Translations under genes and position numbers: made by a program
The notes under the pieces: generated by a model
Told to the model about the DNA's origin: nothing
What the model saw: the letters and a program-made list of their open reading frames with translations, nothing else
Databases searched by the model: none
Assembly: GCA_016840165.1 (NCBI GenBank)
Contig: JAEOSU010000067.1
Span: 35,400-99,399 of the forward strand
Direction: 5' to 3'
DNA: 64,000 bases
Origin: Promethearchaeota archaeon
GTDB lineage: Archaea; Asgardarchaeota; Lokiarchaeia; Sigyniarchaeales; SOKP01
Shown: positions 571 through 64,000 of the stretch, piece after piece
How the letters are laid out: each line of letters begins with the position of its first letter
Position numbering within the stretch: the stretch's first letter is position 1

Positions 571-1209
571 ATGAAAATTGGGATAATTGGCACAGGAAGA
601 TTAGGGAGTGCTCTAGGAAAAATTTGGGCAGAAAAGGGTCATATGATTATGTTTGGCTCTCGAGATCCTCAGAAAGCAAAAAAGTTAGCTAATTCAATCG
701 GATCTAATGCAAGTGGAGGAACATATGAAGAAGCTGCAAAATTTGGGGATGTTATCATTCTTGCAGTTCCATGGTCAGGAGCAAAAGAATCAATCAAAAC
801 AGCAGGAAATTTAGATAGTAAGATTATAGTAGATTCTACTACTACTGCTGCACCCCATTTGGGAGGCCCTTTAATAGGACGTACTCCATCTGCAGCAGAA
901 AAAGTCGCAAAATGGGCAGTAGGGGCTAAAGTAATAAAAGCAGTTCATACTATTGGAGTAGAAAGTTTAAATAACTTACAATTTGGTTCCCAAAAAGCAA
1001 ATTTATTTATTTGTGGAGATAATTTAGAAGCAAAATCAATTGTTCGTACTTTGGGAGAGGATATCGGTTTTGAAGTAATAGATGCTGGGCCACTCACAAA
1101 TGCGAGGCTTACTGAACCCCTCGCGATGCTTTGGATTGAATTAGCTTACAAACAAGGCATGGGTACAGACATAGCGTTCAAATTATTACGCCGTAGGAAA
1201 GCTAAATGA
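571..1209 (+). CDS. NADPH-dependent F420 reductase family (F420_oxidored) Rossmann-fold oxidoreductase
   Basis: MKIGIIGTGRLG dinucleotide-binding motif, GSRDPQKA, ILAVPW, ICGD, IDAGPL; GGAGG at 558-562 favours ATG 571 over TTG 556. Confidence 0.85.
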   Translation: MKIGIIGTGRLGSALGKIWAEKGHMIMFGSRDPQKAKKLANSIGSNASGGTYEEAAKFGDVIILAVPWSGAKESIKTAGNLDSKIIVDSTTTAAPHLGGPLIGRTPSAAEKVAKWAVGAKVIKAVHTIGVESLNNLQFGSQKANLFICGDNLEAKSIVRTLGEDIGFEVIDAGPLTNARLTEPLAMLWIELAYKQGMGTDIAFKLLRRRKAK

Positions 1210-1323
1210 AAGAATTAACAAATTAAGTTTTAATACTTTTTATTTTTTACATTAGATTTTTTAAGAGATAAAGACGCAATACTTTAAGTATACTTTAATA
1301 AGAATGCTTGTAAGTACAAAATT

Positions 1324-2265
1324 ATGCAAATTTCAAAATTCAATAGTAATTCTCCATTTGTTCATACTTATTCTATTGTAGCAAGAGATCCCATTACAGG
1401 AGAAATGGGTGTGGGAGTTCAAAGTCATTATTTTTCTGTTGGTTCGGTCGTATCGTGGGGGGAATCTGGCGTTGGAGTAGTTGCTACCCAATCTTTTGTA
1501 AATAAATCTTTTGGATTACGAGGACTTGAGTTATTGAAACAAGGAAAAACTCCTCAAGAAGCAGTAGATATTTTGCTTTCAGATGATGATGGAAGAGATG
1601 TAAGACAAGTTTCAATTTTAGATGTTAAAGGAAAAGTAGCAACTTGTACTGGTTCAAAATGCATAAAATATGCTGGCCATTTTAAAGGAGATAATTTTTC
1701 AGTTCAAGCAAATCTCATGCTCTCGGATAAAGTTTGGCCAAAAATGGCAGAAGCCTATGAAAAGCATAAAACACTTCCATTACCTGATCGAATAATTAGA
1801 TCTATGGAAGCAGCAGAGATTGTAGGAGGGGATATAAGAGGAAAACAGTCTGCAGCATTATTAATTGTAAAGGGTGATCCAGTAGAAAACAAATGGGAGG
1901 ATCCACTGATTGATATTAGAGTGGAGGATCATAATGAGCCTTTAAAAGAATTAGATAGATTACTGAAACTTTGGAGAGCATATAATCACTTGGATAAAGG
2001 TGACCAAGAATTCGAGAAAGGAAATATAAATGAGGCTTTTGAAGAATATAATACTGCTAGAAAAATGTTTCCCGATGATCTTGAGATGAAATATTGGACA
2101 GCAGTTACATTAGCTAATCATCAAAAACTTGATGAAGCTTTACCATTATTCAAAGAAATCTTCAAAAAGGATAATAATTGGCGAATACTTACAGAAAGAT
2201 TACCTGAAACAGATCTTTTAAATGTAAAAAAGGAAGAAATAGACAAAATCCTATCTCTTAAATAA
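1324..2265 (+). CDS. DUF1028 (Ntn-hydrolase-like) protein with C-terminal TPR
   Basis: HTYSIVARDP.TGEMGVGVQS, VATQS, RQVSI, GGDIRGKQSAAL, DIRVEDH.EP; TPR-like helical C-terminus. Confidence 0.85.
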   Translation: MQISKFNSNSPFVHTYSIVARDPITGEMGVGVQSHYFSVGSVVSWGESGVGVVATQSFVNKSFGLRGLELLKQGKTPQEAVDILLSDDDGRDVRQVSILDVKGKVATCTGSKCIKYAGHFKGDNFSVQANLMLSDKVWPKMAEAYEKHKTLPLPDRIIRSMEAAEIVGGDIRGKQSAALLIVKGDPVENKWEDPLIDIRVEDHNEPLKELDRLLKLWRAYNHLDKGDQEFEKGNINEAFEEYNTARKMFPDDLEMKYWTAVTLANHQKLDEALPLFKEIFKKDNNWRILTERLPETDLLNVKKEEIDKILSLK

Positions 2266-2358
2266 GTATTAAAAACATCAGAAAGACTTAAGTAACTTTT
2301 TATATTATCTTATTGAAGTAGAATATAATCTAATTATTGATTTTTATTGTATATAATA

Positions 2359-3408
2359 ATGAAAGTTGCGAGATATTTTAGTAATGATGATATAAGAGAA
2401 GCTGAGATGCAAAAACCAATAATAGGTCCAGGAGAGATTTTAGTTAAAGTTAAAAAATCAGGTATTTGTGGATCTGATATACTGGAATATTATAGAAAGG
2501 CAAAAATGAAAAAGTTGGGTGTAAGCTCACTCATCTTAGGTCATGAAATTGCTGGAGAAATAGTTGAGAAAGGTGATAATGTAAAGCACCTTAAAGTTGG
2601 AGATCGCGTATTCGTCTCTCACCACGTTCCATGCTTTGAATGTCATTACTGTGAACAAGGTCATCATACGGCATGTGATCTGCTCCATAATACAAATTAT
2701 GACCCGGGTGGTTTTGCTGAGTTTATTCGAGTCCCGAAAATTAATATTGAAAAAAAAGGGGTTTTGGTGTTAGATAAAAATGTATCTTATGAAGAAGGAG
2801 TTTTAATTGAACCACTTGGTTGTGTGTGCCGTGCTCAAAGATTAGTTAATGTAAAAAAAGGTTTAACTGTTCTGGTACTAGGTAGTGGTGTATCTGGTAT
2901 ATTGCATATTCAATTAGCTAAACTAAGAGGAGCCAAGAAGGTAATAGCAACTGATATTAATGAATTTCGATTGCAGATGGCAAAAAAATTTGGAGCAGAT
3001 TATGTTTTTCATGCACAAGAAGATATCGCTACTGAATTAAAAAAGGTTAATGAAGATAGATTAGCAGATATAATAATAGTTTGTGCGGGTGCTTTATCTG
3101 CTGCAGAACAAGCATTAAATTGCGTAGCACCAGGAAGTAAAATTGTGTTTTTTGCAGTTCCAGAACCAGGGATAAATCTTGAAGTTCCTATAAATGATTA
3201 TTGGAGAAATGAAATTACTATTATGACATCCTATGGTGCAGCGCCAGAAGACCTTGATGAGGCATATAATTGGATACTTTCAAAAAGAATCAATGTAGAA
3301 GAATTGATAACTCACCGGTTTCCCTTAAGTAAGGCTGGAGATGCTTTTAAAGTGGTTTGCGAGGCTGCTGAGTCTTTGAAGGTGATTATAGAACCAGAAA
3401 AAGGCTAA
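2359..3408 (+). CDS. Zinc-dependent medium-chain dehydrogenase (sorbitol/threonine dehydrogenase-like)
   Basis: GICGSD, LGHE.AG, structural Zn motif C-x2-C-x2-C-x7-C, GSGVSG; ATG 2359 preferred over TTG 2347. Confidence 0.9.
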   Translation: MKVARYFSNDDIREAEMQKPIIGPGEILVKVKKSGICGSDILEYYRKAKMKKLGVSSLILGHEIAGEIVEKGDNVKHLKVGDRVFVSHHVPCFECHYCEQGHHTACDLLHNTNYDPGGFAEFIRVPKINIEKKGVLVLDKNVSYEEGVLIEPLGCVCRAQRLVNVKKGLTVLVLGSGVSGILHIQLAKLRGAKKVIATDINEFRLQMAKKFGADYVFHAQEDIATELKKVNEDRLADIIIVCAGALSAAEQALNCVAPGSKIVFFAVPEPGINLEVPINDYWRNEITIMTSYGAAPEDLDEAYNWILSKRINVEELITHRFPLSKAGDAFKVVCEAAESLKVIIEPEKG

Positions 3409-3419
3409 ATTGTATAATA

Positions 3420-4385
3420 TTATCTCTTAAAATAGTCAGATTGTTGAATATGTTTTCGAATTATCCATGATTCCCAAAAACTATATATTTCTAATACAAC
3501 ACCCTTTAATTTCTTTTTAGGGAAAAATAAATCCATTTGCAGTAATTTTTTAACTACTTTATTCTCATTTTTATTTAAGATCTCAAGTGATATTAATGTT
3601 TTATCAACTTTCTCTTGGTTATTCTTAATTTTTTTTCTCATATATTCAAAAGGGTGTGTGTTTGGACTCTTCACAAAGTAGGAATGACTTGAAGTTAAAT
3701 ATTTACCATTTTTAAGAAAAAATGCTTCTGCTTTATTAATATCTTCTAAATATTGAGGAATTGAGCATTGTTTAAATCCATACCAGGGACCAAAACCTTC
3801 TACTTCAGGCTTGGGTTTATCAAATCCTAAGCAACTGATGTGGAAAATTCTCTCTTTAGGTAAAAAGAAACCTATATGTCCTTTTGAATGCCCAGAGAAA
3901 GAAATTGTATCTATCTTAAAATCTTCAAACTTTAATGAATCTCCTGGATTAAAAGAATTAACGTGATTACACTTTTGGAATCCGTTTAATTTTGCGAAAT
4001 GGTTAACAATATTAAAGTCTAATTCATCATCAAACCCAAAACCTTTATAAAATTTATGAAGATCTAATAAATAATTTGCTTCTGGATATGGTGCGTGAAT
4101 TTTAGCTCCAAGTTCTTCCCATGCGTGAACATGACAAGTGTGATCAAGATGACCATGAGAACAAACATAATTTGAAACAGGACCATAAATATGATTTAGT
4201 GAATTCACATATCTTGGCTCGATATTCAAATCAAGTGCTATAGTTTTTCTATTTCGAACTGGCTTTGGTAAAACAAGAAGACCATCGCAGCAAGAAAAAA
4301 AGAATGGTGGTTTAATTTGATGGATTAATAAAATATCTTCCGTTACTTTTCTAATCTCAAGATTATCAATTTTAGGTAAAGTCAT
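3420..4385 (-). CDS. MBL-fold metallo-hydrolase
   Basis: SHGHLDH (HxHxDH), SGHSKGH, terminal SSH. Confidence 0.85.
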   Translation of the reverse strand: MTLPKIDNLEIRKVTEDILLIHQIKPPFFFSCCDGLLVLPKPVRNRKTIALDLNIEPRYVNSLNHIYGPVSNYVCSHGHLDHTCHVHAWEELGAKIHAPYPEANYLLDLHKFYKGFGFDDELDFNIVNHFAKLNGFQKCNHVNSFNPGDSLKFEDFKIDTISFSGHSKGHIGFFLPKERIFHISCLGFDKPKPEVEGFGPWYGFKQCSIPQYLEDINKAEAFFLKNGKYLTSSHSYFVKSPNTHPFEYMRKKIKNNQEKVDKTLISLEILNKNENKVVKKLLQMDLFFPKKKLKGVVLEIYSFWESWIIRKHIQQSDYFKR

Positions 4386-4542
4386 AAAATGAGGTTCTGA
4401 AAAATAGTCAAATTATTGCGATGAAAAATAAATTAGAATTTAATAACTTAACCTTAAAGAAATATTTTTTTTCAGAATTAACTCCTCATGATTATAAAGA
4501 AAAAAAAGAGAATTTGGAATTTGAATTTATCCTTATCTACTT

Positions 4543-4947
4543 TTAAAGTAGTGGTTTCATCTTTTCCTCTTGCTGTAGAAAAGTAAGTACAAAGAGTACT
4601 AGCAGAACTATAAAAATTATAAGGGTTACTACACCCATTCCTATATTAAAAACCGCGAAATTAATAATTGCTGCAATTAATCCTGTTGCCAACCATACCA
4701 ATTCAGCAATAATTACAATTTTCACTTCTTTCCATTCTTTTGCTAAGAAACCACATAAAGAACTCACTGTCAAACCTGCGCCAGAAGCACCCAAAATCAT
4801 TAATATAGCCCCAATTTCATCGGTATAAGTCATTCCATATATAGGCACGGTAATTTCTGGTATAAAGAATAAAACCGTTAAAATAATCCCTATAACAAAA
4901 TGGATTATAAAAGTTATTTTCGTAAATTTTTGAATCTCTTCAACCAT
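4543..4947 (-). CDS. Small four-TM membrane protein
   Basis: Four hydrophobic segments in 134 aa. Confidence 0.75.
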   Translation of the reverse strand: MVEEIQKFTKITFIIHFVIGIILTVLFFIPEITVPIYGMTYTDEIGAILMILGASGAGLTVSSLCGFLAKEWKEVKIVIIAELVWLATGLIAAIINFAVFNIGMGVVTLIIFIVLLVLFVLTFLQQEEKMKPLL

Positions 4948-5094
4948 TTTTCAAATCACTTTTTTGTTAGGTTTATTTAAATAGATGATTTTGAATTATT
5001 ATTTTCCTTAGTATATAAATGTTGAAATCTCAATAATATTAGTTTAGATATGAAATTCAATTAAAAATAAAAAAATAAGAAAATAAAAAAGTAA

Positions 5095-5889
5095 TTATAG
5101 CCCTACAGGGCCTTGTTTATAGATCTCATAAGCTTCATCAACTGAAACATTATCATGAACTATAGCTCTCACGGCTTTAATCATGCCAATAGGTTTATCT
5201 GATTGGAAAATATTCCTTCCCATGTCTACTCCAACGGCATTTTTTTCAATTGCATTCTTTGCCATCTGCAATGCATCTCTTTCCTCGATTTTCTTCCCTC
5301 CAGCAATTACGATTGGTGCTGGGCAAATGCTAGTTACTTCCTCAAAATTTTCACAATAATAAGTCTTTACAAAAGTAGCTCCCATTTCTGCAGCCATTCT
5401 ACTTGCCATTCCGAGATAACGTGCATCTCTCACCATTTCTCTCCCTACTGCTGTGACCGCAAGTACGGGTACTCCATAAGTTTGCCCAAAATTCACAAGC
5501 TTAGAGAGGTTCATTAAAGTCTGTTTCTCATACTCACCTCCAACGAAAATAGAACAAGTAATAGCAGAAACATTCAACCTTATCGCATCCTCGATTGAAA
5601 CATTGATTTCTTCGTTTGAAAGTTCCTTAAGCATACTAGCACCAGCAGAAACTCTTAAAACAATAGGAACATCTATTTCAGAAGGAACACAATTTCTTAG
5701 CATACCACGTGTTAGCATTAAAGCATCTGCATATTCAAATAAAGGTGTCATATCTGCAAAACATTTCAGTTGCCCAGGGACATTTCCAAAATACCCATGA
5801 TCTATAGCCAGCATTACACAACGTCCACTCTTGGGCCTAATTATTCTATTCAATCTGTTTTGAAAGCCCCAATCACCTATTACTACCAT
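5095..5889 (-). CDS. lsrF: LsrF-like thiolase (DhnA-type class I aldolase family)
   Basis: DWG..NRL.RI..PKSGR.VMLA.DHGYF, VTAVG.EMVRDARY, FVKTYY (catalytic Lys), IVIAGGKK, GVDMGRNIFQ. Confidence 0.85.
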   Translation of the reverse strand: MVVIGDWGFQNRLNRIIRPKSGRCVMLAIDHGYFGNVPGQLKCFADMTPLFEYADALMLTRGMLRNCVPSEIDVPIVLRVSAGASMLKELSNEEINVSIEDAIRLNVSAITCSIFVGGEYEKQTLMNLSKLVNFGQTYGVPVLAVTAVGREMVRDARYLGMASRMAAEMGATFVKTYYCENFEEVTSICPAPIVIAGGKKIEERDALQMAKNAIEKNAVGVDMGRNIFQSDKPIGMIKAVRAIVHDNVSVDEAYEIYKQGPVGL

Positions 5890-6007
5890 TTATAATTCAC
5901 TTTTTATATTATTGGTTATATTTATAGTTAATTTTTGTAAATTAATTATCGATCTTTATTTTATTTTTACTAAAAATTGGAGTTTACAAAGTTTCATAAG
6001 AAATTAG

Positions 6008-6856
6008 TTATATGACACTTAAAAACTCTCCAACTCTACTTTTTATCTTTGAGACAATCTTCACAGAGATATTTCTTCTAATAAATTCTTTAATCAAATT
6101 CAAACGATAAGTACTTATTTTTTTTATTTTTAATGCTTTAGATAATTGTTCAATTAAATCATCTTCATAAATATTATCAACTGTTTCAAGAATGGAAACA
6201 ACATAATTCACTTCACTTATAAATCGGGAAATATCTTGTTGAAGAAGCTTTTGTTGCTCTTGTTCATCAATAATTTCTAAAGCTCTTTTTAGAATTTGTT
6301 CTTCAAACTTTAGTTTTTCTTTCCATGGCGTTTGAAAAATATGTTGTTGTGTATCCATTATCAATGCATCTTTATCTTTTACTTTAATTTTACTAATATC
6401 AGGTTCATCGAGTAAATAGATTGTTTTACTTCCTCTAAAACTTTCGGGTAATATATTATCGCCTACTTTGTTTAATATTTCTTCAGAATACTCAAAAAAA
6501 TCATCCTTTATAATATAAGCAGGATAATTAAAAATCTTAGCATGAATTAGACTAAAAATTCCATAAGTACCAAAAGTTTGAATTAAATTTCTAAGATTTA
6601 TTCTTCCTTCAGCCTCTCTCTCTGCTTCAGGAGAAATAGTAACTATATGAAGGTCAATTTTTTCATAGCCCCTTACAATTCCTTTAGTATCTACAAATAC
6701 TATAAATTGGTGCTTTGGACATACTGCATTTATGGGTACTTGAATTTTGATGGTCCCAAACTTTTTTTGTGAAAAAACAGCTTCAGGAATATTAATTGTT
6801 TTTGCTATACCACATATAGGGCATTTTACTTCGAGGACTTTAAATGTATTACTCAT
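6008..6856 (-). CDS. Hypothetical protein with N-terminal Zn-ribbon-like motif
   Basis: CPICG...CPKHQFIVFVD..G.VRGYEKID followed by a helical C-terminal part. Confidence 0.75.
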   Translation of the reverse strand: MSNTFKVLEVKCPICGIAKTINIPEAVFSQKKFGTIKIQVPINAVCPKHQFIVFVDTKGIVRGYEKIDLHIVTISPEAEREAEGRINLRNLIQTFGTYGIFSLIHAKIFNYPAYIIKDDFFEYSEEILNKVGDNILPESFRGSKTIYLLDEPDISKIKVKDKDALIMDTQQHIFQTPWKEKLKFEEQILKRALEIIDEQEQQKLLQQDISRFISEVNYVVSILETVDNIYEDDLIEQLSKALKIKKISTYRLNLIKEFIRRNISVKIVSKIKSRVGEFLSVI

Positions 6857-6965
6857 CTTTCAAATTAACTAATTTGATCAGATCCTAATAATAATACATC
6901 AACTCTACATAAAAAGATTAACAAATTTCTTAAAATCTGATATTAGATATTTAGAATTAGTGTAA

Positions 6966-7700
6966 TTACAGTTTTGTCGCAAAGCTTTCATTTTTTAAGC
7001 TGACTAATTTTTTATTCCAATTCTTATAATCCATAACATAATTATATCCACATACTGTTTCGATATTTTGTTTTTTAACGATTTCTTTTATTCTTTTTAC
7101 CCCATCCATAGTTGAATGAGCAGGACCGTAAGGATTTAAAATCAGATTTTCTTCTCTTAAGAAAAAATAATCACAAATAAAAAGCACATCTTCGAAAATA
7201 TAAAATGTAAATCCTGGTGTATGTCCATTAATAATGTGGGCTTCAATGCCTTCAAGTTTAAAATCATGTTCAAATTTCTTATCAAATGGATGTTTACTAG
7301 CAATTGGAAGTTCTGAATCTTTCTTATGGATCCAAATAAAGGTTGTATAATAAGCCCTATAAAGATTAGATGCTCCTAGAAAATGAGGGTGTGTAAATAA
7401 TATTTTATCCATAGGTTCTAAATCCTTACTGAATGTAGAAGGACAATCAATCCATATATTCTTACCCTTTATTTTAATACAATAAGCTGAATGCTCAAAT
7501 CCTAATTTAGGGTAAGAATTTAAACGATCAATTTTATTATTAATTTTAGAACTCACAATTGAATATTTTTGAGAACACTCTTCTGCGGTAATAAAATTTT
7601 CATGAGATACCCCACAAAAAGGACAGGATTCTGGATAATAACCCCCAATTATATTATACCCGCATCTTTTACAAACGTATTGTTCTTTCAATAATTTCAT
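6966..7700 (-). CDS. Rubredoxin-like domain fused to an MBL-fold domain
   Basis: CKRCGY...CPFCG at the N-terminus; THPHF, GHTPG and FICD MBL-like motifs. Confidence 0.8.
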   Translation of the reverse strand: MKLLKEQYVCKRCGYNIIGGYYPESCPFCGVSHENFITAEECSQKYSIVSSKINNKIDRLNSYPKLGFEHSAYCIKIKGKNIWIDCPSTFSKDLEPMDKILFTHPHFLGASNLYRAYYTTFIWIHKKDSELPIASKHPFDKKFEHDFKLEGIEAHIINGHTPGFTFYIFEDVLFICDYFFLREENLILNPYGPAHSTMDGVKRIKEIVKKQNIETVCGYNYVMDYKNWNKKLVSLKNESFATKL

Positions 7701-7794
7701 TTTTCTAGGAAAAAATCACTTCAAAGAAACTCTCTTTAAATTAATTCTTCTTAAATATGTAAAAAGTTTTTTTAAAAAATTAATTAATTCCATT

Positions 7795-9090
7795 ATGAAA
7801 ATAGATATTTCTAAAGAAGATTCAGAATTTTTGTATAATTTTGTTCATCGAATAATTACAGAAGTGGGACCAAGAATACCTTGTAGTTCTCAAGAAGCTA
7901 AAGCCGCTGAAATTATTGAAAAAGAGTTTAAAAAATCCTGTGATGAAGTTTTGATGGAAGATTTCACTTGTCATCCGAAAGCATTTTTAGGTTGGATTAA
8001 GCTGGATATGATTATGATTGTAATATCGATTCTTCTTTATTTCTTAAGTCAAGTATTTACAAATTATTATTGGTTGTTGATTATAGCTATATTTTCCTTT
8101 TTGTTTGTATTAATCCCTTTTTTGGTTATGTGGGAGGAATTTTTTAATTATAAAGAGTTTATAGATCCACTATTTCGTAAAAAAACCTCCAAAAATGTAA
8201 TTGGGAAATTTAAACCAAAAGGAGAGCTAAAAAAAATCATAATCTTTTCTAGCCATATGGATAGCGCTATTGAATTTAAATTGTTGAAACTTTTAGGTTG
8301 GAAATTTATACCCATTGCATTTGGGGGAATATTCATAATGTCAATGTGGTTAATTCTTTCATTTTCACATCTTTTAATTATTTTGATTGGTATAATTAGC
8401 TTAAAGGCAATTTTTTTTAATGTAATGATTTGGACTCTTATTATAGGAAGCCCATGTATTATAGGACTTTATTTTTTTGTACCACTGGGAGATAAGGGAA
8501 ATGTAGTACCTGGTGCTGTAGATAATCTAAGTAGTTGCTCAGTTGTTCAAGGGATAGGACGATATTTAAAAAAAAATAGGGACTTAATCCCAAATAATAC
8601 TGAAATAAGATTAATAAGCTTTGGTTGTGAAGAAGCTGGTTTGAGAGGGGCATATCGGTATGTAGAAGCTCATTATGAAGAGTTAAAAAAATATGATGCA
8701 GTAGTTGTAAATATGGATGGTCTTGAGTCTCCTGATCATTTTCAAATAATCGAATTTGAACCTACTACGAGAACTTGGCATTCAGAGGAAGTTATTCAAA
8801 ACCTATTAAAGGCAGCAAAATTAGTTGAGGTTAAAACAAAACGATTTGGTGCAGGAAAATTAGAGAAAACAGTAGGGCGTTTAAGTGGGGGTTCCGATGC
8901 CGCAGCATTTTCAAAAGCAGGTATTAAAGCAGGATTTCTAAATTCCGCAGATTGGAGGACACGTTCAAAATATTATCATCAATCTACAGATACATTAGAT
9001 AAAATCAAAACTGGAACATTAGAGTGCGCATTAAAAATTTGTATTGCTTTTCTAATGAATGAAAAAAATACTAATTATGAATTTTCATAA
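7795..9090 (+). CDS. M28 family metallopeptidase with inserted TM segments
   Basis: SSHMDS, GAVDNLS, GCEEAGLRGA, NMD, GSD, YYHQSTD. Confidence 0.9.
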   Translation: MKIDISKEDSEFLYNFVHRIITEVGPRIPCSSQEAKAAEIIEKEFKKSCDEVLMEDFTCHPKAFLGWIKLDMIMIVISILLYFLSQVFTNYYWLLIIAIFSFLFVLIPFLVMWEEFFNYKEFIDPLFRKKTSKNVIGKFKPKGELKKIIIFSSHMDSAIEFKLLKLLGWKFIPIAFGGIFIMSMWLILSFSHLLIILIGIISLKAIFFNVMIWTLIIGSPCIIGLYFFVPLGDKGNVVPGAVDNLSSCSVVQGIGRYLKKNRDLIPNNTEIRLISFGCEEAGLRGAYRYVEAHYEELKKYDAVVVNMDGLESPDHFQIIEFEPTTRTWHSEEVIQNLLKAAKLVEVKTKRFGAGKLEKTVGRLSGGSDAAAFSKAGIKAGFLNSADWRTRSKYYHQSTDTLDKIKTGTLECALKICIAFLMNEKNTNYEFS

Positions 9091-10725
9091 TCATGTTTTT
9101 CTTAAAGGCATTCCAGACAATGATCCTGTAAAATTTCCCTGATCATATGCAATCACTCCGTTTACGAAAACATATTCAACGCCTTCAGAATATAATCGAG
9201 GATTTTCATACGTTGCTTTATCAATTATTTTATCTGCATCAAATATGGTGATATCCGCCCAATATCCTTCTTTAAGTAAGCCACGATCTTTTAATCCCAA
9301 TTTCTGTGCAGGAAATGAAGTCATTTTTTTAATTGCATCATGTAAAGTAATTAATTTTTTTTCACGGACATACTTTCCTAATACCTGAGTAAAAGTACCA
9401 TTACAGTAAGGATTTGGAAAAACCTCAGAATTTTCTGGTATTATTAACCCATCAGAGGCAATCATGGAAAGTGGATGCACAATTGTTACAATATTATCTT
9501 CAGCAGTTATCGAAAGGTATGTTGCGTTTACAGCACCATTTTGATCTATTAAAATTTCAATAATTGCTTCTCTTGGATCGATTTTTTTCTCTAATGAAAT
9601 TTGGTATACATGTTTACCGTTATATTCTTTGCTTTTAGGAGCATTTATATATACCTTCACCCAATCTTTTTCTTCCTTGATATTCAAAAAACTGCCAGCG
9701 ATCACACTCATTTCTCGAAGTATCTTACTTTTTAAATCATTATCGTTTTTAGATTTTTTTAAAATATCTATCGCACGAGGAATGTCTACTCTTTCATTTG
9801 ATTGGTAAATCCAAGGCGGTACCATAGCAAACAAAAAAGTGTAATTTGATGCATGAGGAAATACATCAAAAGTTACATCTAAACCCTCTTCACGGGCTCT
9901 TTCGACAACTTTACAAGCTTTTCTGATATCTCCTGGCCAAAATCCAAAGGGTTTAAAATGAGAAATTTCTACGGGTATCCCTGTTCTAGCAATCTTAACG
10001 GCCTCTTTCGTAGCCCTTACTAATCCGCTTCCAAATCCGCGAAAGTGAGTAGTATAAATTCCATCATATTCACTAACAACTTTACAGAGCTCAATAATTT
10101 CATCAGTTTTGGCAAAAGAGCCTGGGGGATAGTCTAAACCTGTTGACATGCCGAATGCCCCCTGTTCCATTTGTTCTCTTAGAATATCTTTCATTTTTTT
10201 CAATTCTTCAGAGTTTGGGGCTCTTTTGTCTAAACCAAGGGTTAAAATCCTTATCATCGAATGACCTACTAATGGAGCAATGTTAATGGGGATCCCTTTT
10301 TGCTTTAAATCGGCTAAATATCCACTTAATTTACGATATGTTTTATATTTATCTCCAGATGAAATGAGAGATCTAAACATATCATAAATTTCATCTCCAG
10401 CTCTCTTTGGATCGATTGGTGTCATTGAAAATCCACAATTCCCGACAACATGAGTAGTTACTCCTTGTGTCAATACATTCTCACCTCGACTTAAAAAAAT
10501 TGTTTGATCTGAATGTGTGTGGATATCAATAAAACCAGGTGAAACAATTAAACCTGAAGCATCAATTACTACATCAATATCTTTTTTTCTAATGGTACGA
10601 GCAATTTCTTTAATTTTACCATTATCAATTAATAAATCTGCTTTAAACCAAGGATTTCCTGTTCCATCAATTATTTTTCCATTCTTGATTAAAAAAGAGT
10701 TTTTATTAGAGTTTTGTCCTTTCAT
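9091..10725 (-). CDS. D-aminoacylase (N-acyl-D-amino-acid deacylase), amidohydrolase family
   Basis: IIDGTGNPW, PGFIDIHTHSD, GNCG.S, STGLDY.PG, SDG, KMTS.PA..LGL.DRG.L..G..ADI. Confidence 0.92.
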   Translation of the reverse strand: MKGQNSNKNSFLIKNGKIIDGTGNPWFKADLLIDNGKIKEIARTIRKKDIDVVIDASGLIVSPGFIDIHTHSDQTIFLSRGENVLTQGVTTHVVGNCGFSMTPIDPKRAGDEIYDMFRSLISSGDKYKTYRKLSGYLADLKQKGIPINIAPLVGHSMIRILTLGLDKRAPNSEELKKMKDILREQMEQGAFGMSTGLDYPPGSFAKTDEIIELCKVVSEYDGIYTTHFRGFGSGLVRATKEAVKIARTGIPVEISHFKPFGFWPGDIRKACKVVERAREEGLDVTFDVFPHASNYTFLFAMVPPWIYQSNERVDIPRAIDILKKSKNDNDLKSKILREMSVIAGSFLNIKEEKDWVKVYINAPKSKEYNGKHVYQISLEKKIDPREAIIEILIDQNGAVNATYLSITAEDNIVTIVHPLSMIASDGLIIPENSEVFPNPYCNGTFTQVLGKYVREKKLITLHDAIKKMTSFPAQKLGLKDRGLLKEGYWADITIFDADKIIDKATYENPRLYSEGVEYVFVNGVIAYDQGNFTGSLSGMPLRKT

Positions 10726-10901
10726 AAAAATCAGAATTTTTTATTTTTTTATTAAAAGTGATCTTTATTTTTGGGGATATAAATATTGAATTATTTATAT
10801 ACTCTTGAAATCTTTACTGAAAATCCTACCTTTTTTATTTCGAAAATATAAAGAATTAATAGATTGAACAAAAAAAATAGAATTTATTATTATATTTTCT
10901 A

Positions 10902-13487
10902 CTATTGTTTTTTAACAACTAGTTTTGTTAAAGCTATGATAAGAATCATTGGTATAACACCAAGACCAAATATCAGAAATAAAGCTAAATCTAGATAGCT
11001 TCCAATCGATAAAATGAAAGGAATTAGAAATAGTTGTCCAACAGAATCGAGTAAATAATGAGCTATTATACATGGTAGTAAACTTTTTGTTTTAATATAA
11101 ATATAAGCAAAAGTAATCCCAATACAACTAGCATAAATTGTTTGCATAAGAGTTAAGAATAAATCTGCTCCCAGTATTAAATTAGTTAAATGGAATAATC
11201 CAAATAATACACCATTTAAGATTATTGATGTCTTATGTGAATATTTCTTTAATTGCAAATTTAAAATTACTCCTCTAAATGCTATCTCTTCCCATATTCC
11301 AGGTATTAATGCGATAATCAATATAAACCAACCTAAGCCTGTATAAATGCTTGGATTCCCAAATAGAATATTCCAATCAAGGAACCATGTTCCAAAAATA
11401 TTTCCAATCAAAAGTATCGAGATACCTAATATTATGATACTACTAACTCCAAGAAATATATTACGCCAGAGAGGTCTAAACGTACTTAATCCAATAGTTA
11501 GAGAAAATTCTCTAAAAGATTCTTTCTTAGGTAGCTTTAATCCAAGAGGTACCGCTACAAACCATAAAAGGGCAAATAAGCTAAAAGTTAAAAAAAATTC
11601 AACAAACAACAATACAAGAAAAGGTAGATTTAATATAATTGGTAATAAGAGTAATTCTATTGGTATCACCAAAAGCCCGAAAATTAGATACAGAACCATT
11701 AGGATTCCAGAACCAATATTAACATGTTCTCGTAGTAATCCTCCAGTTACATAATTGTGCATTTTTTCAACATTAGGAAACATTCTAGTGAATACAAATA
11801 TTAAACTTAAAACTCCAATAATCCCTATAAACCCTAAAACAATTAATGCAGTAATTATACCAGAAATATAAAACAAGAGATTACCAGTTATTGAAATTGT
11901 TGCATATAATAAAAATAAAGATACGAGCATAAGTGCCCATTTACCAACTTTATGTTCTTTATTTAATTCCTCTATGATATATTTGTATTTCACCTTCCCA
12001 AAGAGTCGAATCTTCACCTCAAACATGAATAACAATAAAGTCCAAGCAATTGGTAAACTGACTAAGAATAATAATAGTATAATTATCGAATTAGTTAATA
12101 TTGTAAGCACTATTGATGACAGAATAATTGATATTCCTTGAATTGATAACATTAGTATGATTTTAGCTTTAGCTTGTTCACGAGGGATAATAGGTAACGA
12201 TGCTATTGTGGATGAGCCTGATTCTTCAATATTTAAGAAACCTACAATTAACATTGGAGGAATAAATAAATACACTGCTAACACAATAGACCATAGGATT
12301 AAAATAGCCTCTACCGATGTTCCTGCCATGTTAATTGGTACTTGCATAGTTAAAATTAGTATTAAAGGATAAAAAATAGGGAAGAAAATAAACATAAAGG
12401 ACTGTAAATCACGTGTCGTTGATACTAAATCTTTCCTTAAGTATGCCTTTATAGGTGATTTAGGAACTATTTCCACTTCAATCTCTCTTTTCTCTACTTC
12501 TTCTACTTTTATCTCGGTAGAAATCGTGCTACGTAAAGCTCGTTGAGCAGTCCTAAAGAGAAACAATGTTATTAGTATGAATAAGGCAAACCCTATGATT
12601 GTACTTCCTATTATTCCTAAGGGAACTCGATTTGGCATACTACTTAATGATATGAGATATCCTGGAGCGAACGGGTATGGGATTAAGCTAAAAATAATAT
12701 TCATCATATCAGAAGGCTCATTAGTAGCGAAAGTAGCTAGAAGTGTATCAACAGAATTAAATCCCCAAGTAATTATGAATCCAGATGAAAATGCGATTAC
12801 AAAATAGCTTATCATCGTTATCATTCTAACAATATTCACTTTCTTTGATTTTCCTTTCGATTCTGAGAAAATATAGCTCATTTTTTCTCCTAAGATAACA
12901 AGTAAGCTAAAGCAAAAGACCACATTTAGAAACGAAACTAAGAGCGTGGTTATAAAAATTAAGAAATTCTGGGTTCCGATGAACATTATAATAGGAGATG
13001 CGAAGATTAATACAATGAGCGGGATATCAAGATTGCGAAAAATAGTCATAAATCCAATTTTTCTCAAATCTTTTTTAGAGAAGGGAAGTGTTTGTAACCA
13101 TTTGAAAGAATTTCCCGACATGAAAGAACTGGTTGAAACCATACCAAACATTATCATATATAGAAGTGTTATTGCAAAGAATATTCCAAAAATGAAACTG
13201 GATACAAAAGCAATGGTATTTGGCGTATATACATGTTCAGGATTAAGTGTAATTTGGAAATACATGACTAATGGGAGAAGGGGAAAAAATGTAAATAGAA
13301 ATGAAAACACAATCTTTAACGCTAAAAATTGATGTTTAATATAATTCTTATTTCTCTTGAATTTTTCAATTAACCTTGCCTGATGAGCACCTGCACTTGC
13401 AATTTGACCCTCCATCAGAATTTCATAGCAGGTAAATTTACTTATGCTGTAGTATTTTAACTTTTCTTCTTCCATATTCAATTTCAC
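10902..13487 (-). CDS. Multi-pass ABC-exporter-type permease fused to a C-terminal CPBP (CAAX/Abi) intramembrane metalloprotease
   Basis: About 20 hydrophobic segments; CPBP motifs WEEIAFRG, FGLFH, IIAHYLLD; start overlaps the ABC ATPase stop (alternative ATG at 13475). Confidence 0.8.
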   Translation of the reverse strand: MKLNMEEEKLKYYSISKFTCYEILMEGQIASAGAHQARLIEKFKRNKNYIKHQFLALKIVFSFLFTFFPLLPLVMYFQITLNPEHVYTPNTIAFVSSFIFGIFFAITLLYMIMFGMVSTSSFMSGNSFKWLQTLPFSKKDLRKIGFMTIFRNLDIPLIVLIFASPIIMFIGTQNFLIFITTLLVSFLNVVFCFSLLVILGEKMSYIFSESKGKSKKVNIVRMITMISYFVIAFSSGFIITWGFNSVDTLLATFATNEPSDMMNIIFSLIPYPFAPGYLISLSSMPNRVPLGIIGSTIIGFALFILITLFLFRTAQRALRSTISTEIKVEEVEKREIEVEIVPKSPIKAYLRKDLVSTTRDLQSFMFIFFPIFYPLILILTMQVPINMAGTSVEAILILWSIVLAVYLFIPPMLIVGFLNIEESGSSTIASLPIIPREQAKAKIILMLSIQGISIILSSIVLTILTNSIIILLLFLVSLPIAWTLLLFMFEVKIRLFGKVKYKYIIEELNKEHKVGKWALMLVSLFLLYATISITGNLLFYISGIITALIVLGFIGIIGVLSLIFVFTRMFPNVEKMHNYVTGGLLREHVNIGSGILMVLYLIFGLLVIPIELLLLPIILNLPFLVLLFVEFFLTFSLFALLWFVAVPLGLKLPKKESFREFSLTIGLSTFRPLWRNIFLGVSSIIILGISILLIGNIFGTWFLDWNILFGNPSIYTGLGWFILIIALIPGIWEEIAFRGVILNLQLKKYSHKTSIILNGVLFGLFHLTNLILGADLFLTLMQTIYASCIGITFAYIYIKTKSLLPCIIAHYLLDSVGQLFLIPFILSIGSYLDLALFLIFGLGVIPMILIIALTKLVVKKQ

Positions 13488-61766: not shown

Positions 61767-62758
61767 TCGCGTGGATAATATTCATAATGCCCATGAAGGT
61801 TATGCGGTATTACATTTCAATCCTTGTTCGCGTGGATAATATTCATAATGCCCATGAAGGTTATGCGGTATTACATTTCAATCCTTGTTTTAGTGGATAT
61901 TTCTATGCTATTTTAATAGAACTACATTTTAAAAATAATAGAACTTCTTTGTAGTTTCAATCCTTGTTTTAGTGGATATTTCTATGCTATAAAAGAGGAT
62001 GAGGATGACCGAGATTAAAATATCGTTTGTAGTTTCAATCCTTGTTTTAGTGGATATTTCTATGCTATATTTATGGAAGTTCAGATTTGTCATTTTGGAA
62101 AACTGAGTTTCAATCCTTGTTTTAGTGGATATTTCTATGCTATCTTTTTTGGATTTCGTTGTTGGAAGATGTGTTTGCCTGTTTCAATCCTTGTTCACGT
62201 GGATAATATTAGAATTCCTTATGAACAATTTAAACAAGTAGTTTTCAATCCTTGTTCGCGTGGATAATATGAACCTGAAGCTCTTTTAGGGCTTGTAGTT
62301 GGCTTTCAATCCTTGTTCGCGTGGATAATATCATCTAACGCAAATTTCGCTATTTCTGCTTCTCTTTCAATCCTTGTTCGCGTGGATAATATGAATCCAC
62401 AAACGGGAGAAGATACAGGATTACCTTTCAATCCTTGTTCGCGTGGATAATATGCATCTAAAATGTTTACTAATCCAAATGACGCCTTTCAATCCTTGTT
62501 CGCGTGGATAATATTATCGCTTTTTGCTATATTTCTCAATAATATGCTTTCAATCCTTGTTCGCGTGGATAATATAAATGATACCCAATAATTTGTCCTA
62601 GACCTCCTTTTCAATCCTTGTTCGCGTGGATAATATGTAAGAGATTTCATTATGATTCGTTAATATTACTTTCAATCCTTGTTCGCGTGGATAATATGAC
62701 AGAATTTATCAGGATAAAGTTGAATGGGACTTTCAATCCTTGTTCGCGTGGATAATAT
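61767..62758 (-). CRISPR. CRISPR array 1 (chimeric): 11 full and 1 partial type-B repeats, 4 type-A repeats, 15 spacers
   Basis: B core (+ strand) TTTCAATCCTTGTTCGCGTGGATAATAT at 61815, 62182 (CACG variant, preceded by G), 62243, 62304, 62365, 62426, 62487, 62548, 62609, 62670, 62731. A repeat GTTTCAATCCTTGTTTTAGTGGATATTTCTATGCTAT at 61876 (lacking the G), 61954, 62032, 62107. Minus strand inferred from ATTGAAAC/G 3' ends and the decayed left end. Confidence 0.97.
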
Positions 62759-63066
62759 ACTAATTTCTTCCTATTTCATGATACTTACATGAAAATTTGT
62801 TGCCTATAGTATATAGAACGCTTCTTCTATATAAAAATAACTAGTAAACCGATCTAATTTTGATTCCATAATAAAATATGATTATATTAAATATTATTAT
62901 AATTTTTAAAATACGGTCTCAAAAAGATAGAAAAATTTAGAAATTTACTAAAAAATATTAGATAAGTTAATTGGCGTTTTTATAGAAGTTATTCTTAATC
63001 CTTATATAGTGTCTCATCGAGATTATGCCAATCTCGATGATGGCTTGAATTTTTTTAACCACTTGA
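62759..63066 (-). promoter_or_regulatory. AT-rich putative leader of array 1
   Basis: 308-bp non-coding AT-rich stretch next to the homogeneous end of array 1; TATA-like TTTATATA on the minus strand at 62828-62835. Confidence 0.6.
63014..63040. repeat. Perfect 11-bp hairpin between the two arrays
   Basis: TCATCGAGATT-atgcc-AATCTCGATGA. Confidence 0.6.
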
Positions 63067-64000
63067 GTTTCAATCCTTGTTTTAATGGATACTCTTATGC
63101 TATATACTGTAAGGGCATGATACTTGATTTTACTCGTAATGTTTCAATCCTTGTTTTAATGGATACTCTTATGTTATAATAAAAAAGTATATACAAAAAA
63201 GGAGTGATAAAAAAAGTTTCAATCCTTGTTGTAGTGGATATTTCTATGCTATCTTCAGAAGTAATGAGATATGAAAGACAATTATCTAGTTTCAATCCTT
63301 GTTTTAGTGGATATTTCTATGCTATCATGGAAATAGTGGATATAGTTATTACTGATAATATAGAGTTTCAATCCTTGTTTTAGTGGATATTTCTATGCTA
63401 TTTCCTACTTCCGAATTTAATATGATGTGTGGTTATAAGTTTCAATCCTTGTTGTAGTGGATATTTCTATGCTATATGGGCTTTTTGGGCAGCTAAGCGT
63501 TATTATTCTCCTACGTTTCAATCCTTGTTTTAGTGGATATTTCTATGCTATCGCCCTTAAAGCCCCCTTACAGATTATTAAAGCCTTAGGTTTCAATCCT
63601 TGTTGTAGTGGATATTTCTATGCTATAGGAATAGAATAAAATGATAATTGAAAACAAAACATCTGTTTCAATCCTTGTTTTAGTGGATATTTCTATGCTA
63701 TTCATCTACCTTGGACTATCATTGATGAATCTAAAGAAGGGTTTCAATCCTTGTTTTAGTGGATATTTCTATGCTATTTTGTTGTAAATATGTTTTCAAT
63801 AATGATTTATCTTCATGTTTCAATCCTTGTTTTAGTGGATATTTCTATGCTATTTACTAAAAAATTCCGCTATCGATGATATTTTAAATGGGTTTCAATC
63901 CTTGTTTTAGTGGATATTTCTATGCTATCATTCCTATAGTAGAGAGGGTTATAAGAGAAAGAAAGTTTCAATCCTTGTTTTAGTGGATATTTCTATGCTA
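63067..64000 (-). CRISPR. CRISPR array 2: at least 13 type-A 37-bp repeats and 12 spacers of 36-39 bp; runs off the window
   Basis: Repeats at 63067, 63141, 63216, 63289, 63365, 63439, 63515, 63590, 63665, 63741, 63817, 63892 and 63965; minus-strand repeat ATAGCATAGAAATATCCACTAAAACAAGGATTGAAAC; divergent copies at the left (trailer) end. Confidence 0.98.

What the first reader, a model, noticed from the sequence alone, without database searches (positions are those of the whole stretch)
61815..62270. Chimeric CRISPR array: a four-spacer block of one repeat type spliced into an array of another, with reciprocal hybrid junctions
Seen: the order is B, A, A, A, A, then ten B. A and B share TTTCAATCCTTGTT. 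The left junction repeat (61876) has an A body but lacks A's otherwise invariant leading G and follows a 33-bp B-type spacer. The right junction repeat (62181) has A's G and follows a 37-bp A-type spacer but has a B body. This is what crossovers within the shared 14-bp core would produce. Block spacers are 42, 41, 38 and 37 bp versus 33 bp for B. Inference: immune memory was transferred between two CRISPR systems by repeat-mediated recombination, so one transcript may feed two effector types.
Basis: partly seen in the sequence, partly recalled or inferred. Interest (0 to 1): 0.85.

Follow-up and report, generated by a model that had tools for sequence, protein, structure and literature searches.

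The report
Mosaic CRISPR array, two repeat variants
A CRISPR array in an Asgard (Promethearchaeota) sediment genome carries four units of a 37-nt repeat inside a run of a shorter 28-nt sister repeat, most likely through recombination between neighbouring arrays of one Cas6b/type III-A family; it is a tidy example of a known process, the four-unit block was barely seen in public runs, and nothing shows that it bridges two immune systems.

Summary
In detail: B, four A, then ten B, with two complementary hybrid junction repeats and spacer lengths that follow the repeat type. A second A array starts 309 nt away and runs off the contig end.

The arrays read on the minus strand, so the A block lies near the old end of the B array. 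A and B share 21 of 24 positions, including the Cas6 site and ATTGAAA tag; A is Rfam CRISPR-DR7.

A relative, YT1_007, has identical A and B repeats and the same B leader around one type III-A operon with a single cas6b. It shows A/B mosaics too. A metagenome contig pairs a B-type array with an orthologous operon. Recombination is therefore supported; "two systems, two effector types" is not.

This assembly has no cas genes.

Per-run public contigs confirm the left flank, X-B-X and the B units. They show almost nothing for 61860-62242, so the block is at best a minority haplotype there.

The scan has noted two-repeat hybrid arrays on other DNA before. Interest is modest.

The parts
61693..61766 (-). 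Remnant 3' end of a gene cut off by the array; marks the breakpoint between chromosome and CRISPR locus
   Evidence: The window matches G053:C19 up to 61739 and stays readable to about 61766. In G053 the sequence runs on as a 359-aa ORF with a weak HEPN hit. Logan contigs of runs X1 and X3 run from 61533 across 61766 into the partial repeat and X, up to 61796.
61767..61781 (-). Truncated B repeat (15 nt, TCGCGTGGATAATAT on the + strand): the trailer end of the array
   Evidence: (family D5).
61782..61875 (-). Spacer X (61782-61814), full B repeat (61815-61842), spacer X again (61843-61875): an exact 61-nt tandem duplication
   Evidence: D5: 61767-61827 and 61828-61888, 100% identical; X is the only duplicated spacer. 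A Logan contig of X3 covers 61767-61857. The flank contigs of X1 and X3 stop at 61796, the branch point expected if X follows both a partial and a full B.
61876..61911 (-). Left hybrid repeat: A body without A's terminal base, directly after a 33-nt B-type spacer
   Evidence: Rfam CRISPR-DR7 scores 38.7 bits here against 44.6 for full A repeats.
61912..62180 (-). A block: spacers s1-s4 (42, 41, 38, 37 nt) with three full 37-nt A repeats at 61954-61990, 62032-62068 and 62107-62143
   Evidence: The spacers are unique in the genome and in all fetched loci. Depth is 0 to about 6 in four public runs.
62181..62209 (-). Right hybrid repeat B': A's terminal base and shared core, then a B body with one change (CACG)
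62210..62758 (-). Nine spacers of 33 nt (the first, 62210-62242, follows B') and nine consensus B repeats at 62243-62758: the leader-proximal, younger part of the array
   Evidence: Spacers from 62271 on are covered at 10-22x by Logan contigs of X1-X3. Spacer 62210-62242 has no cover.
62759..63066 (-). Leader of the B array. The first ~90 nt are conserved and hold TATA-like runs on the minus strand. The rest is spacer DNA up to the A array.
   Evidence: The alignment with two leader copies in G053:C16 is near-identical over about 90 nt. The G053 fragment equals this leader with 62818-63049 replaced by 33 nt.
63067..64000 (-). Separate A array of 13 repeats. The two at 63067 and 63141 are degenerate (trailer end). 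It runs off the contig end.

Best explanation
This is the old (trailer) part of a CRISPR array transcribed right to left from a leader at about 62759-62850.

The array belongs to a repeat family used by a Cas6b-dependent type III-A (Csm) system in sediment Promethearchaeota. The family has two length variants:
- A: 37 nt, with spacers of 36-42 nt.
- B: 28 nt plus one variable base, with spacers of 32-33 nt.

Both keep the same last ~24 nt: a weak AUCC/GGAU stem, the Cas6 cleavage site and the ATTGAAA 5' tag.

A and B arrays lie side by side in the same orientation. Recombination within the shared 14-nt core can therefore move units between them. Here a cassette of four A units sits inside what was one B repeat, which left two complementary hybrid repeats. 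A single crossover with an excised four-unit circle would give exactly this; so would a double crossover or gene conversion.

A separate unequal exchange duplicated spacer X. Deletion between the flanking B repeats (61815 and 62243) would remove the whole 400-nt block, which may be why it is rare in the public runs.

Functionally, all units would be cut by one Cas6b and loaded into one kind of effector.

Shown: the anatomy, repeat homology, orientation, the cas context in relatives, and the recurrence of A/B junctions.
Inferred: the recombination route, co-transcription, processing, and any activity in this host.
For: - Anatomy and hybrid junctions.
- Orientation: Rfam CRISPR-DR7 on the minus strand; degenerate or truncated repeats at the low-coordinate ends; a conserved leader next to cas6b in G053.
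- One family: 21 of 24 shared positions and the same weak stem.
- One effector context: G053:C16 carries cas10-csm2-csm3-csm4-csm5-csm6-cas6b. The five csm core genes score above the NCBIfam cut-offs and cas6b above Pfam's; csm6 is a weak hit. The operon lies between an A array and a B array whose repeats are identical to the window's.
- L058 has a B-variant array upstream of an orthologous operon; cas10 is 62% identical.
- Recurrence: G053 reads A-deg x2, B x3, leader fragment, A-deg, B', B x10, leader. Its A-deg/spacer/B' unit appears in per-run contigs of three runs at 15-27x (table 5c). L059 has three leader copies within 1.4 kb.
- Recombination within and between CRISPR loci is established (PMC4524480).
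- A 14-nt overlap is too short for a de Bruijn assembler to join, so junction k-mers must come from reads (inference from how such assemblers work).
Against: - The block 61860-62242 has no cover, or only 2-6x, in four public runs. The flank stands at 7-33x and the B spacers at 10-22x.
- No read or contig spanning a junction was seen.
- The genome is a MAG with 6.3% contamination, and the contig ends inside an array.
- Depth ratios of flank and B spacers differ between runs, so linkage of the whole array to this chromosome is not secure.
- No cas gene is present in the assembly, so function here is untested.
- 14 nt is short for classical homologous recombination.
Confidence: 0.6

Rival explanations
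1. Assembly or strain-mixture artefact. The unit order in the contig is a path threaded through co-occurring haplotypes or genomes, including the YT1_007-like one. On this reading no single molecule carries flank, X, the A block and the B array as drawn.
For: - The A block, B' and spacer 62210-62242 have almost no cover in four runs.
- The YT1_007 locus is present in the same runs: spacers match exactly, and cas10 lies on a Logan contig identical over 8008 nt. The flank gene occurs in the same run set.
- Depth of flank and B spacers is not proportional across runs.
- The genome is a MAG and the contig ends in a repeat.
Against: - The hybrid junctions cannot be built from a 14-nt overlap at any usual k; they need reads that contain them.
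- The two junctions are complementary and enclose a whole number of units.
- X links the block to the flank-side remnant.
- Heterotypic A/B units are seen independently in G053 and in three per-run assemblies.
- Low cover equally fits a minority haplotype, or a deletion between the two flanking B repeats.
Confidence: 0.25
2. In-place switching. The array grew at its leader end while the leader-proximal repeat changed from B to A and back to B. On this reading the A block records a period when another adaptation machinery filled the array, and no block was transferred.
For: Spacer length tracks repeat type exactly. B' differs from consensus B by one base and keeps A's terminal base, as an older founder repeat might.
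Against: - It needs two successive replacements of the first repeat, each itself a recombination or mutation event.
- B with the same consensus exists in other loci, so it did not arise here.
- The exact duplication of X at the left junction is not explained.
Confidence: 0.1
3. One reading: the chimera lets one transcript feed two different effector types.
For: G053 has both a type I-B locus and the type III-A locus, but only one detectable cas6. crRNAs with the ATTGAAA tag could therefore serve both effectors there. [quoted passage not shown]
Against: - Any such sharing would follow from the common tag and common Cas6b, not from the chimera.
- Both repeat types are found beside the same kind of effector.
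- No cas gene exists in this genome.
Confidence: 0.05

Closest known systems
Recombination and reassortment of CRISPR repeat-spacer units (Kupczok, Landan & Dagan 2015, PMC4524480; Held et al. 2013 on Sulfolobus islandicus, cited there)
   Same: Repeats act as recombination sites. Blocks of units are duplicated, deleted or moved within a locus, between loci or between cells. Repeat-spacer boundaries stay intact.
   Different: Here the partners are two repeat variants of different length (37 and 28 nt). The exchange therefore leaves visible hybrid repeats and a block with a different period.
Cas6b-processed, unstructured repeats that end in ATTGAAAC/G (Methanococcus maripaludis, Clostridium thermocellum, Methanosarcina mazei; review PMC5965381); Rfam CRISPR-DR7 (RF01320)
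   Same: A matches CRISPR-DR7 above the gathering score. The repeats have weak or no structure. An 8-nt tag is expected. A cas6b gene sits beside identical repeats in G053. Nearly the same first 25 nt of the repeat occur in Methanosarcinales arrays.
   Different: Those systems are mostly type I-B with ~37-nt or 30-nt repeats. Here the neighbouring effector is type III-A, and a 28-nt variant coexists with the 37-nt one. Processing was not tested.
Type III-A (Csm) CRISPR-Cas loci without their own adaptation genes
   Same: G053:C16 and L058 carry cas10/csm1, csm2, csm3, csm4, csm5 and csm6, with no cas1 or cas2 in the locus.
   Different: The operon is not in the window's genome. The arrays flanking it are of two repeat lengths.
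[quoted passage not shown]
   Same: One array can serve more than one effector if tag and processing are compatible. G053 has I-B and III-A with a single cas6b.
   Different: That sharing does not need a chimeric array. Nothing here shows two effectors using this transcript.
Two-repeat hybrid arrays noted earlier in this scan (e1-955987, e1-4702587, e1-2571181)
   Same: One array holds repeats of two kinds; the older part keeps another repeat. Those reports read it as a swap of the acquisition end or a leftover scrap.
   Different: Here the foreign block is internal, flanked by B units on both sides, with complementary hybrid repeats. Those notes were not checked here.

Membership tests
CRISPR array | Near-identical direct repeats of 23-55 nt separated by unique spacers of similar length | tested here: met
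   B has 28 nt with a 61-nt period; A has 37 nt with a 73-79-nt period. All spacers are unique except X.
CRISPR array | Leader next to the newest repeat, with degenerate repeats at the far end | tested here: met
   A ~90-nt leader is conserved with G053. A truncated B sits at 61767 and degenerate A repeats at 63067 and 63141.
CRISPR array | cas genes in the same genome | tested here: not met
   No cas1, cas2, cas6, cas6b, RAMP, csm or I-B genes in G000. The A array runs off the contig end, so an unbinned operon is possible.
Rfam CRISPR-DR7 (RF01320) | Match to the covariance model above the gathering score (37 bits) | tested here: met
   All 17 A-type repeats score 38.7-45.3 bits on the minus strand. 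No B repeat matches any Rfam family at E up to 0.1.
Type III-A (Csm) system | cas10/csm1 with csm2-csm5 next to the array | tested here: not met
   Absent from G000. Present beside identical repeats in G053:C16. An operon of the same gene order and sizes lies beside B-variant repeats in L058; only its cas10 was compared, at 62% identity.
Cas6b-type repeat | Cleavage 8 nt before the repeat end, giving an ATTGAAAN 5' tag | not testable with these tools
   The sequence ends in GGATTGAAAC (A) or GGATTGAAA+N (B). No RNA run holds the stretch.
Recombinant (mosaic) CRISPR array | Hybrid repeats whose two halves come from different parents, at both ends of the moved block | tested here: met
   Left junction: B-side flank base plus A body. 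Right junction: A-side flank base plus B body.
Recombinant (mosaic) CRISPR array | Junctions present on single DNA molecules | tested here: inconclusive
   Only k=31 per-run contigs were on hand. They show flank-X-B-X and the B units, but 0-6x over the block.

The most novel reading that the evidence does not exclude
Blocks of repeat-spacer units may be excised as circles from one array and re-inserted, by a single crossover in the 14-nt shared core, into a repeat of a sister array with a different repeat length and spacer ruler. In these Asgard archaea, memories collected by two different adaptation machineries would then be routinely pooled for one Cas6b/Csm effector. The A/B mosaics seen in two genomes would be traces of an ongoing exchange.
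Probability: 0.2. Interest if true: 0.55.

Novelty: new member of a known kind. Interest (0 to 1): 0.33.

Why it matters
If it holds on single molecules, the locus is an unusually legible record of recombination between CRISPR arrays. The two parents differ in repeat length, so both crossover points can be placed within 14 nt. It also shows that spacers sized by two different rulers can end up in one transcript in an Asgard archaeon.

It does not open a new mechanism. Unit shuffling between arrays and sharing of crRNAs between effectors are both known.

There is a practical lesson. Array-based host assignment for Asgard viruses should be cautious with this repeat family. Identical repeats and leaders occur in MAGs of two genera from the same samples.

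Tried and rejected
- **Reads:** only Logan k=31 contigs of four runs (two studies) could be laid. No contig spans the stretch and the A block has little or no cover. This is not evidence of absence: 25-33% of three runs was not read, and short unitigs break at repeats. No RNA holder is listed, so nothing can be said on expression.
- **Depth ratios:** I tried to use them to decide whether the B array belongs to the flank's genome or to the YT1_007-like one. The figures are too noisy and incomplete.
- **Independent assemblies of the locus:** the flank protein 60718-61257 and three ORFs spanning the junctions are not on record. DUF4238 is found only on 2-3 kb contigs that stop short of the array.
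- **Synteny:** no same-genus genome (41 searched) has the flank or the repeats.
- **Protospacers:** none in the phage collection, none for three A-block spacers in IMG/VR, and none in the genome itself. Only one lone family repeat occurs in IMG/VR.
- **GC content:** it does not separate the two MAGs.
- **Literature:** searches for a published natural array made of two repeat types found none. This does not show that none exists.
- **Rejected idea:** that the truncated B repeat was cut by insertion of the seg1/seg2 element. No other half of the repeat lies upstream of 57537.

Full report
**1. What is in the sequence**

On the + strand:

| Coordinates | Feature |
|---|---|
| 61815-61842 | B repeat, TTTCAATCCTTGTTCGCGTGGATAATAT |
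| 61876, 61955, 62033, 62108 | Four A bodies, TTTCAATCCTTGTTTTAGTGGATATTTCTATGCTAT |
| 62182 | B' repeat with CACG in place of CGCG |
| 62243-62758 | Nine consensus B repeats |

Spacers in the A block are 42, 41, 38 and 37 nt. Every B unit has 33 nt.

The left junction repeat lacks the G that precedes all 16 other A repeats of the window. The right junction repeat is the only B-type unit with that G, here or among the 14 B units of the relative G053.

- A truncated B repeat (15 nt) lies at 61767-61781.
- The unit 61767-61827 is repeated exactly at 61828-61888, so spacer X occurs twice (family D5).
- A second, pure A array begins at 63067 and runs to 64000, which is also the end of the contig.

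A and B share more than the 14-mer. They agree at 21 of 24 positions, TTTCAATCCTTGTT NNN GTGGATA.

**2. Orientation**

On the minus strand the repeats end in GGATTGAAAC (A) or GGATTGAAA plus a variable base (B). This is the ending of Cas6-cut repeats that yield an 8-nt tag (PMC5965381).

- All A-type repeats, the left hybrid included, match Rfam CRISPR-DR7 on the minus strand above the gathering score. B repeats match no Rfam family.
- The degenerate or truncated repeats lie at the low-coordinate ends.
- The ~90 nt to the right of the last B repeat are nearly identical to two leader copies in G053, one of them directly beside cas6b.

The arrays are therefore read right to left. The A block lies near the old end of the B array. 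The order in time, if it were simple growth, would be X (B), then the four A units, then ten B units.

**3. Context in this genome**

The window is the last 64 kb of a 99-kb contig of a 3.6-Mb, 105-contig MAG, 99.7% complete with 6.3% contamination.

These are its only CRISPR arrays. No cas1, cas2, cas6, cas6b, RAMP, csm or type I-B gene was found by profile or tblastn.

The truncated B repeat abuts the 3' remnant of a gene whose full 359-aa homologue stands in G053:C19 next to the same upstream DNA. The trailer end of the array is thus a true breakpoint in a variable defence region that holds DUF4238 and AbiV genes.

**4. Relatives**

Among 153 genomes of the order, only G053 has these repeats. 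G053 is in the same family but another genus. It is MAG Promethearchaeota archaeon YT1_007.

Its 11.7-kb contig C16 carries cas10/csm1, csm2, csm3, csm4, csm5, csm6 and cas6b. The csm core genes score above the NCBIfam cut-offs and cas6b above Pfam's; csm6 is a weak hit.
- An A array lies upstream and divergent.
- A B array lies downstream of cas6b.
- Both have repeats identical to the window's.

The B side of C16 is itself a mosaic: two degenerate A repeats, three B, a leader fragment, one degenerate A, a variant B', ten B, then the leader. The leader fragment equals the window's leader with 62818-63049 replaced by 33 nt. It ends in the same degenerate A repeat.

Three metagenome contigs also carry B-type arrays:
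- In L058 a B-variant array stands where G053 has its A array, beside an orthologous operon with cas10 62% identical.
- L059 has three leader copies in 1.4 kb.

The A repeat's first 25 nt recur in arrays of Methanosarcinales, Ignavibacteria, Parabeggiatoa and others, all with a 71-77-nt period.

G053 also has a type I-B locus with cas1, cas2 and cas4 and a third 37-nt repeat. Its only detectable cas6 is the cas6b on C16.

**5. Is the chimera real?**

Only k=31 per-run contigs of four marine-sediment runs could be laid. They confirm:
- the flank running into the partial repeat and X (61533-61796, runs X1 and X3);
- X-B, and in X3 X-B-X up to 61857;
- the B spacers from 62244 and the leader up to the first A repeat.

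For 61860-62242 they give zero, or 2-6x in a few bins. The flank stands at 7-33x and the B spacers at 10-22x. That stretch comprises the block, B' and the following spacer.

The uncovered stretch lies within 61843-62242, the 400 nt between two identical B repeats. That fits a deletion variant being the common form in those samples. It also fits the drawn order being a rare or composite path.

The same runs hold the YT1_007 locus with its own spacers. One of them is its heterotypic A-spacer-B' unit at 15-27x. A Logan contig is identical to C16 over 8 kb, and the flank gene occurs in the same run set. The two MAGs therefore co-occur, and the 11.7-kb cas contig may be hard to bin.

A 14-nt shared core cannot produce a de Bruijn join. 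The junction sequences must therefore exist in reads of the source sample; what remains open is their abundance and long-range linkage. I put about 0.6 on a real recombinant array as drawn. I put about 0.25 on a composite of co-occurring haplotypes.

**6. Mechanism**

The two hybrid repeats are complementary:
- Left: B flank, core, A body.
- Right: A flank, core, B body.

They enclose exactly four spacers. A single crossover between one B repeat and a circle of four A units, excised from an A array by repeat-repeat recombination, gives this directly. A double crossover or gene conversion from the adjacent A array does so as well.

The X duplication needs a further unequal exchange between the truncated and the full B repeat.

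Unequal exchange between co-oriented neighbouring arrays also explains the duplicated leaders of G053 and L059. Recombination among CRISPR units is established (PMC4524480).

Both repeat types fold only into the same weak 4-bp stem and share the cleavage site and tag. One Cas6b would therefore be expected to process the whole transcript for one effector type. This last step is inference.

**7. Verdict**

- The recombination reading is supported as the best explanation.
- The idea of a bridge between two systems or two effector types is not supported.

This is a new, clear example of a known process, in an Asgard MAG without cas genes and without read-level proof. Earlier notes of this scan describe other two-repeat hybrid arrays. 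They also note, independently, the I-E-like 28+33 geometry of repeat B.

Noticed in passing
window 15646-54288 (-): One open reading frame of 12,880 aa fills 38.6 kb of the window.
   Followed up: no
window 57537-57880 and 61355-61739; G053:C19:156347-157098, G053:C71:954-1642: Two non-coding segments are 89-91% identical to G053. There they lie about 30 nt apart, and the first segment recurs on at least five contigs (C19, C71, C53, C50, C22, C60 among the hits). In the window they are split by a 3.5-kb cassette of DUF4238, AbiV-like HEPN and a 179-aa ORF. This may be a conserved hotspot or the ends of an element for defence-gene cassettes. The first segment holds the structured element flagged in note e1-5517305.
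   Followed up: partly
window 62243-62758; L021 1066-2033: The base next to the 28-nt B core, on the spacer side, is variable: mostly C on the + strand in young units and T or A in older ones. The period is fixed at 60-61 nt. This looks like type I-E-style acquisition, where one repeat base comes with the spacer. It is the subject of another finding, e1-5517307.
   Followed up: partly
G053:C9:70913-70940 (L022 2914): A solitary B-like repeat with 2 mismatches stands alone, with no array. It is also seen as a contig end in the public runs.
   Followed up: no
L059 (SDBV01311019.1) 1-1361: Three copies of a ~200-260-nt leader are interleaved with short B-type arrays within 1.4 kb. This suggests repeated unequal exchange in this repeat family.
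   Followed up: no
L057 (G053:C22) 581-11800: A type I-B locus (cas3, cas5b, cas7, split cas8b, cas4, cas2, cas1) has a beta-CASP/MBL nuclease gene between cas8b and cas4 and no cas6 of its own.
   Followed up: no
G000:C66:49780-49887: A weak tblastn match (37 aa, 54% identity, E 4e-4) to the Cas2 of G053. It is the only cas-like signal in the genome and is probably not significant.
   Followed up: no
window 62818-63049: This 232-nt part of the inter-array region is replaced by 33 nt in the YT1_007-type copy. Public contigs show a further variant that diverges at 62864. The region between the arrays is polymorphic in the community.
   Followed up: no
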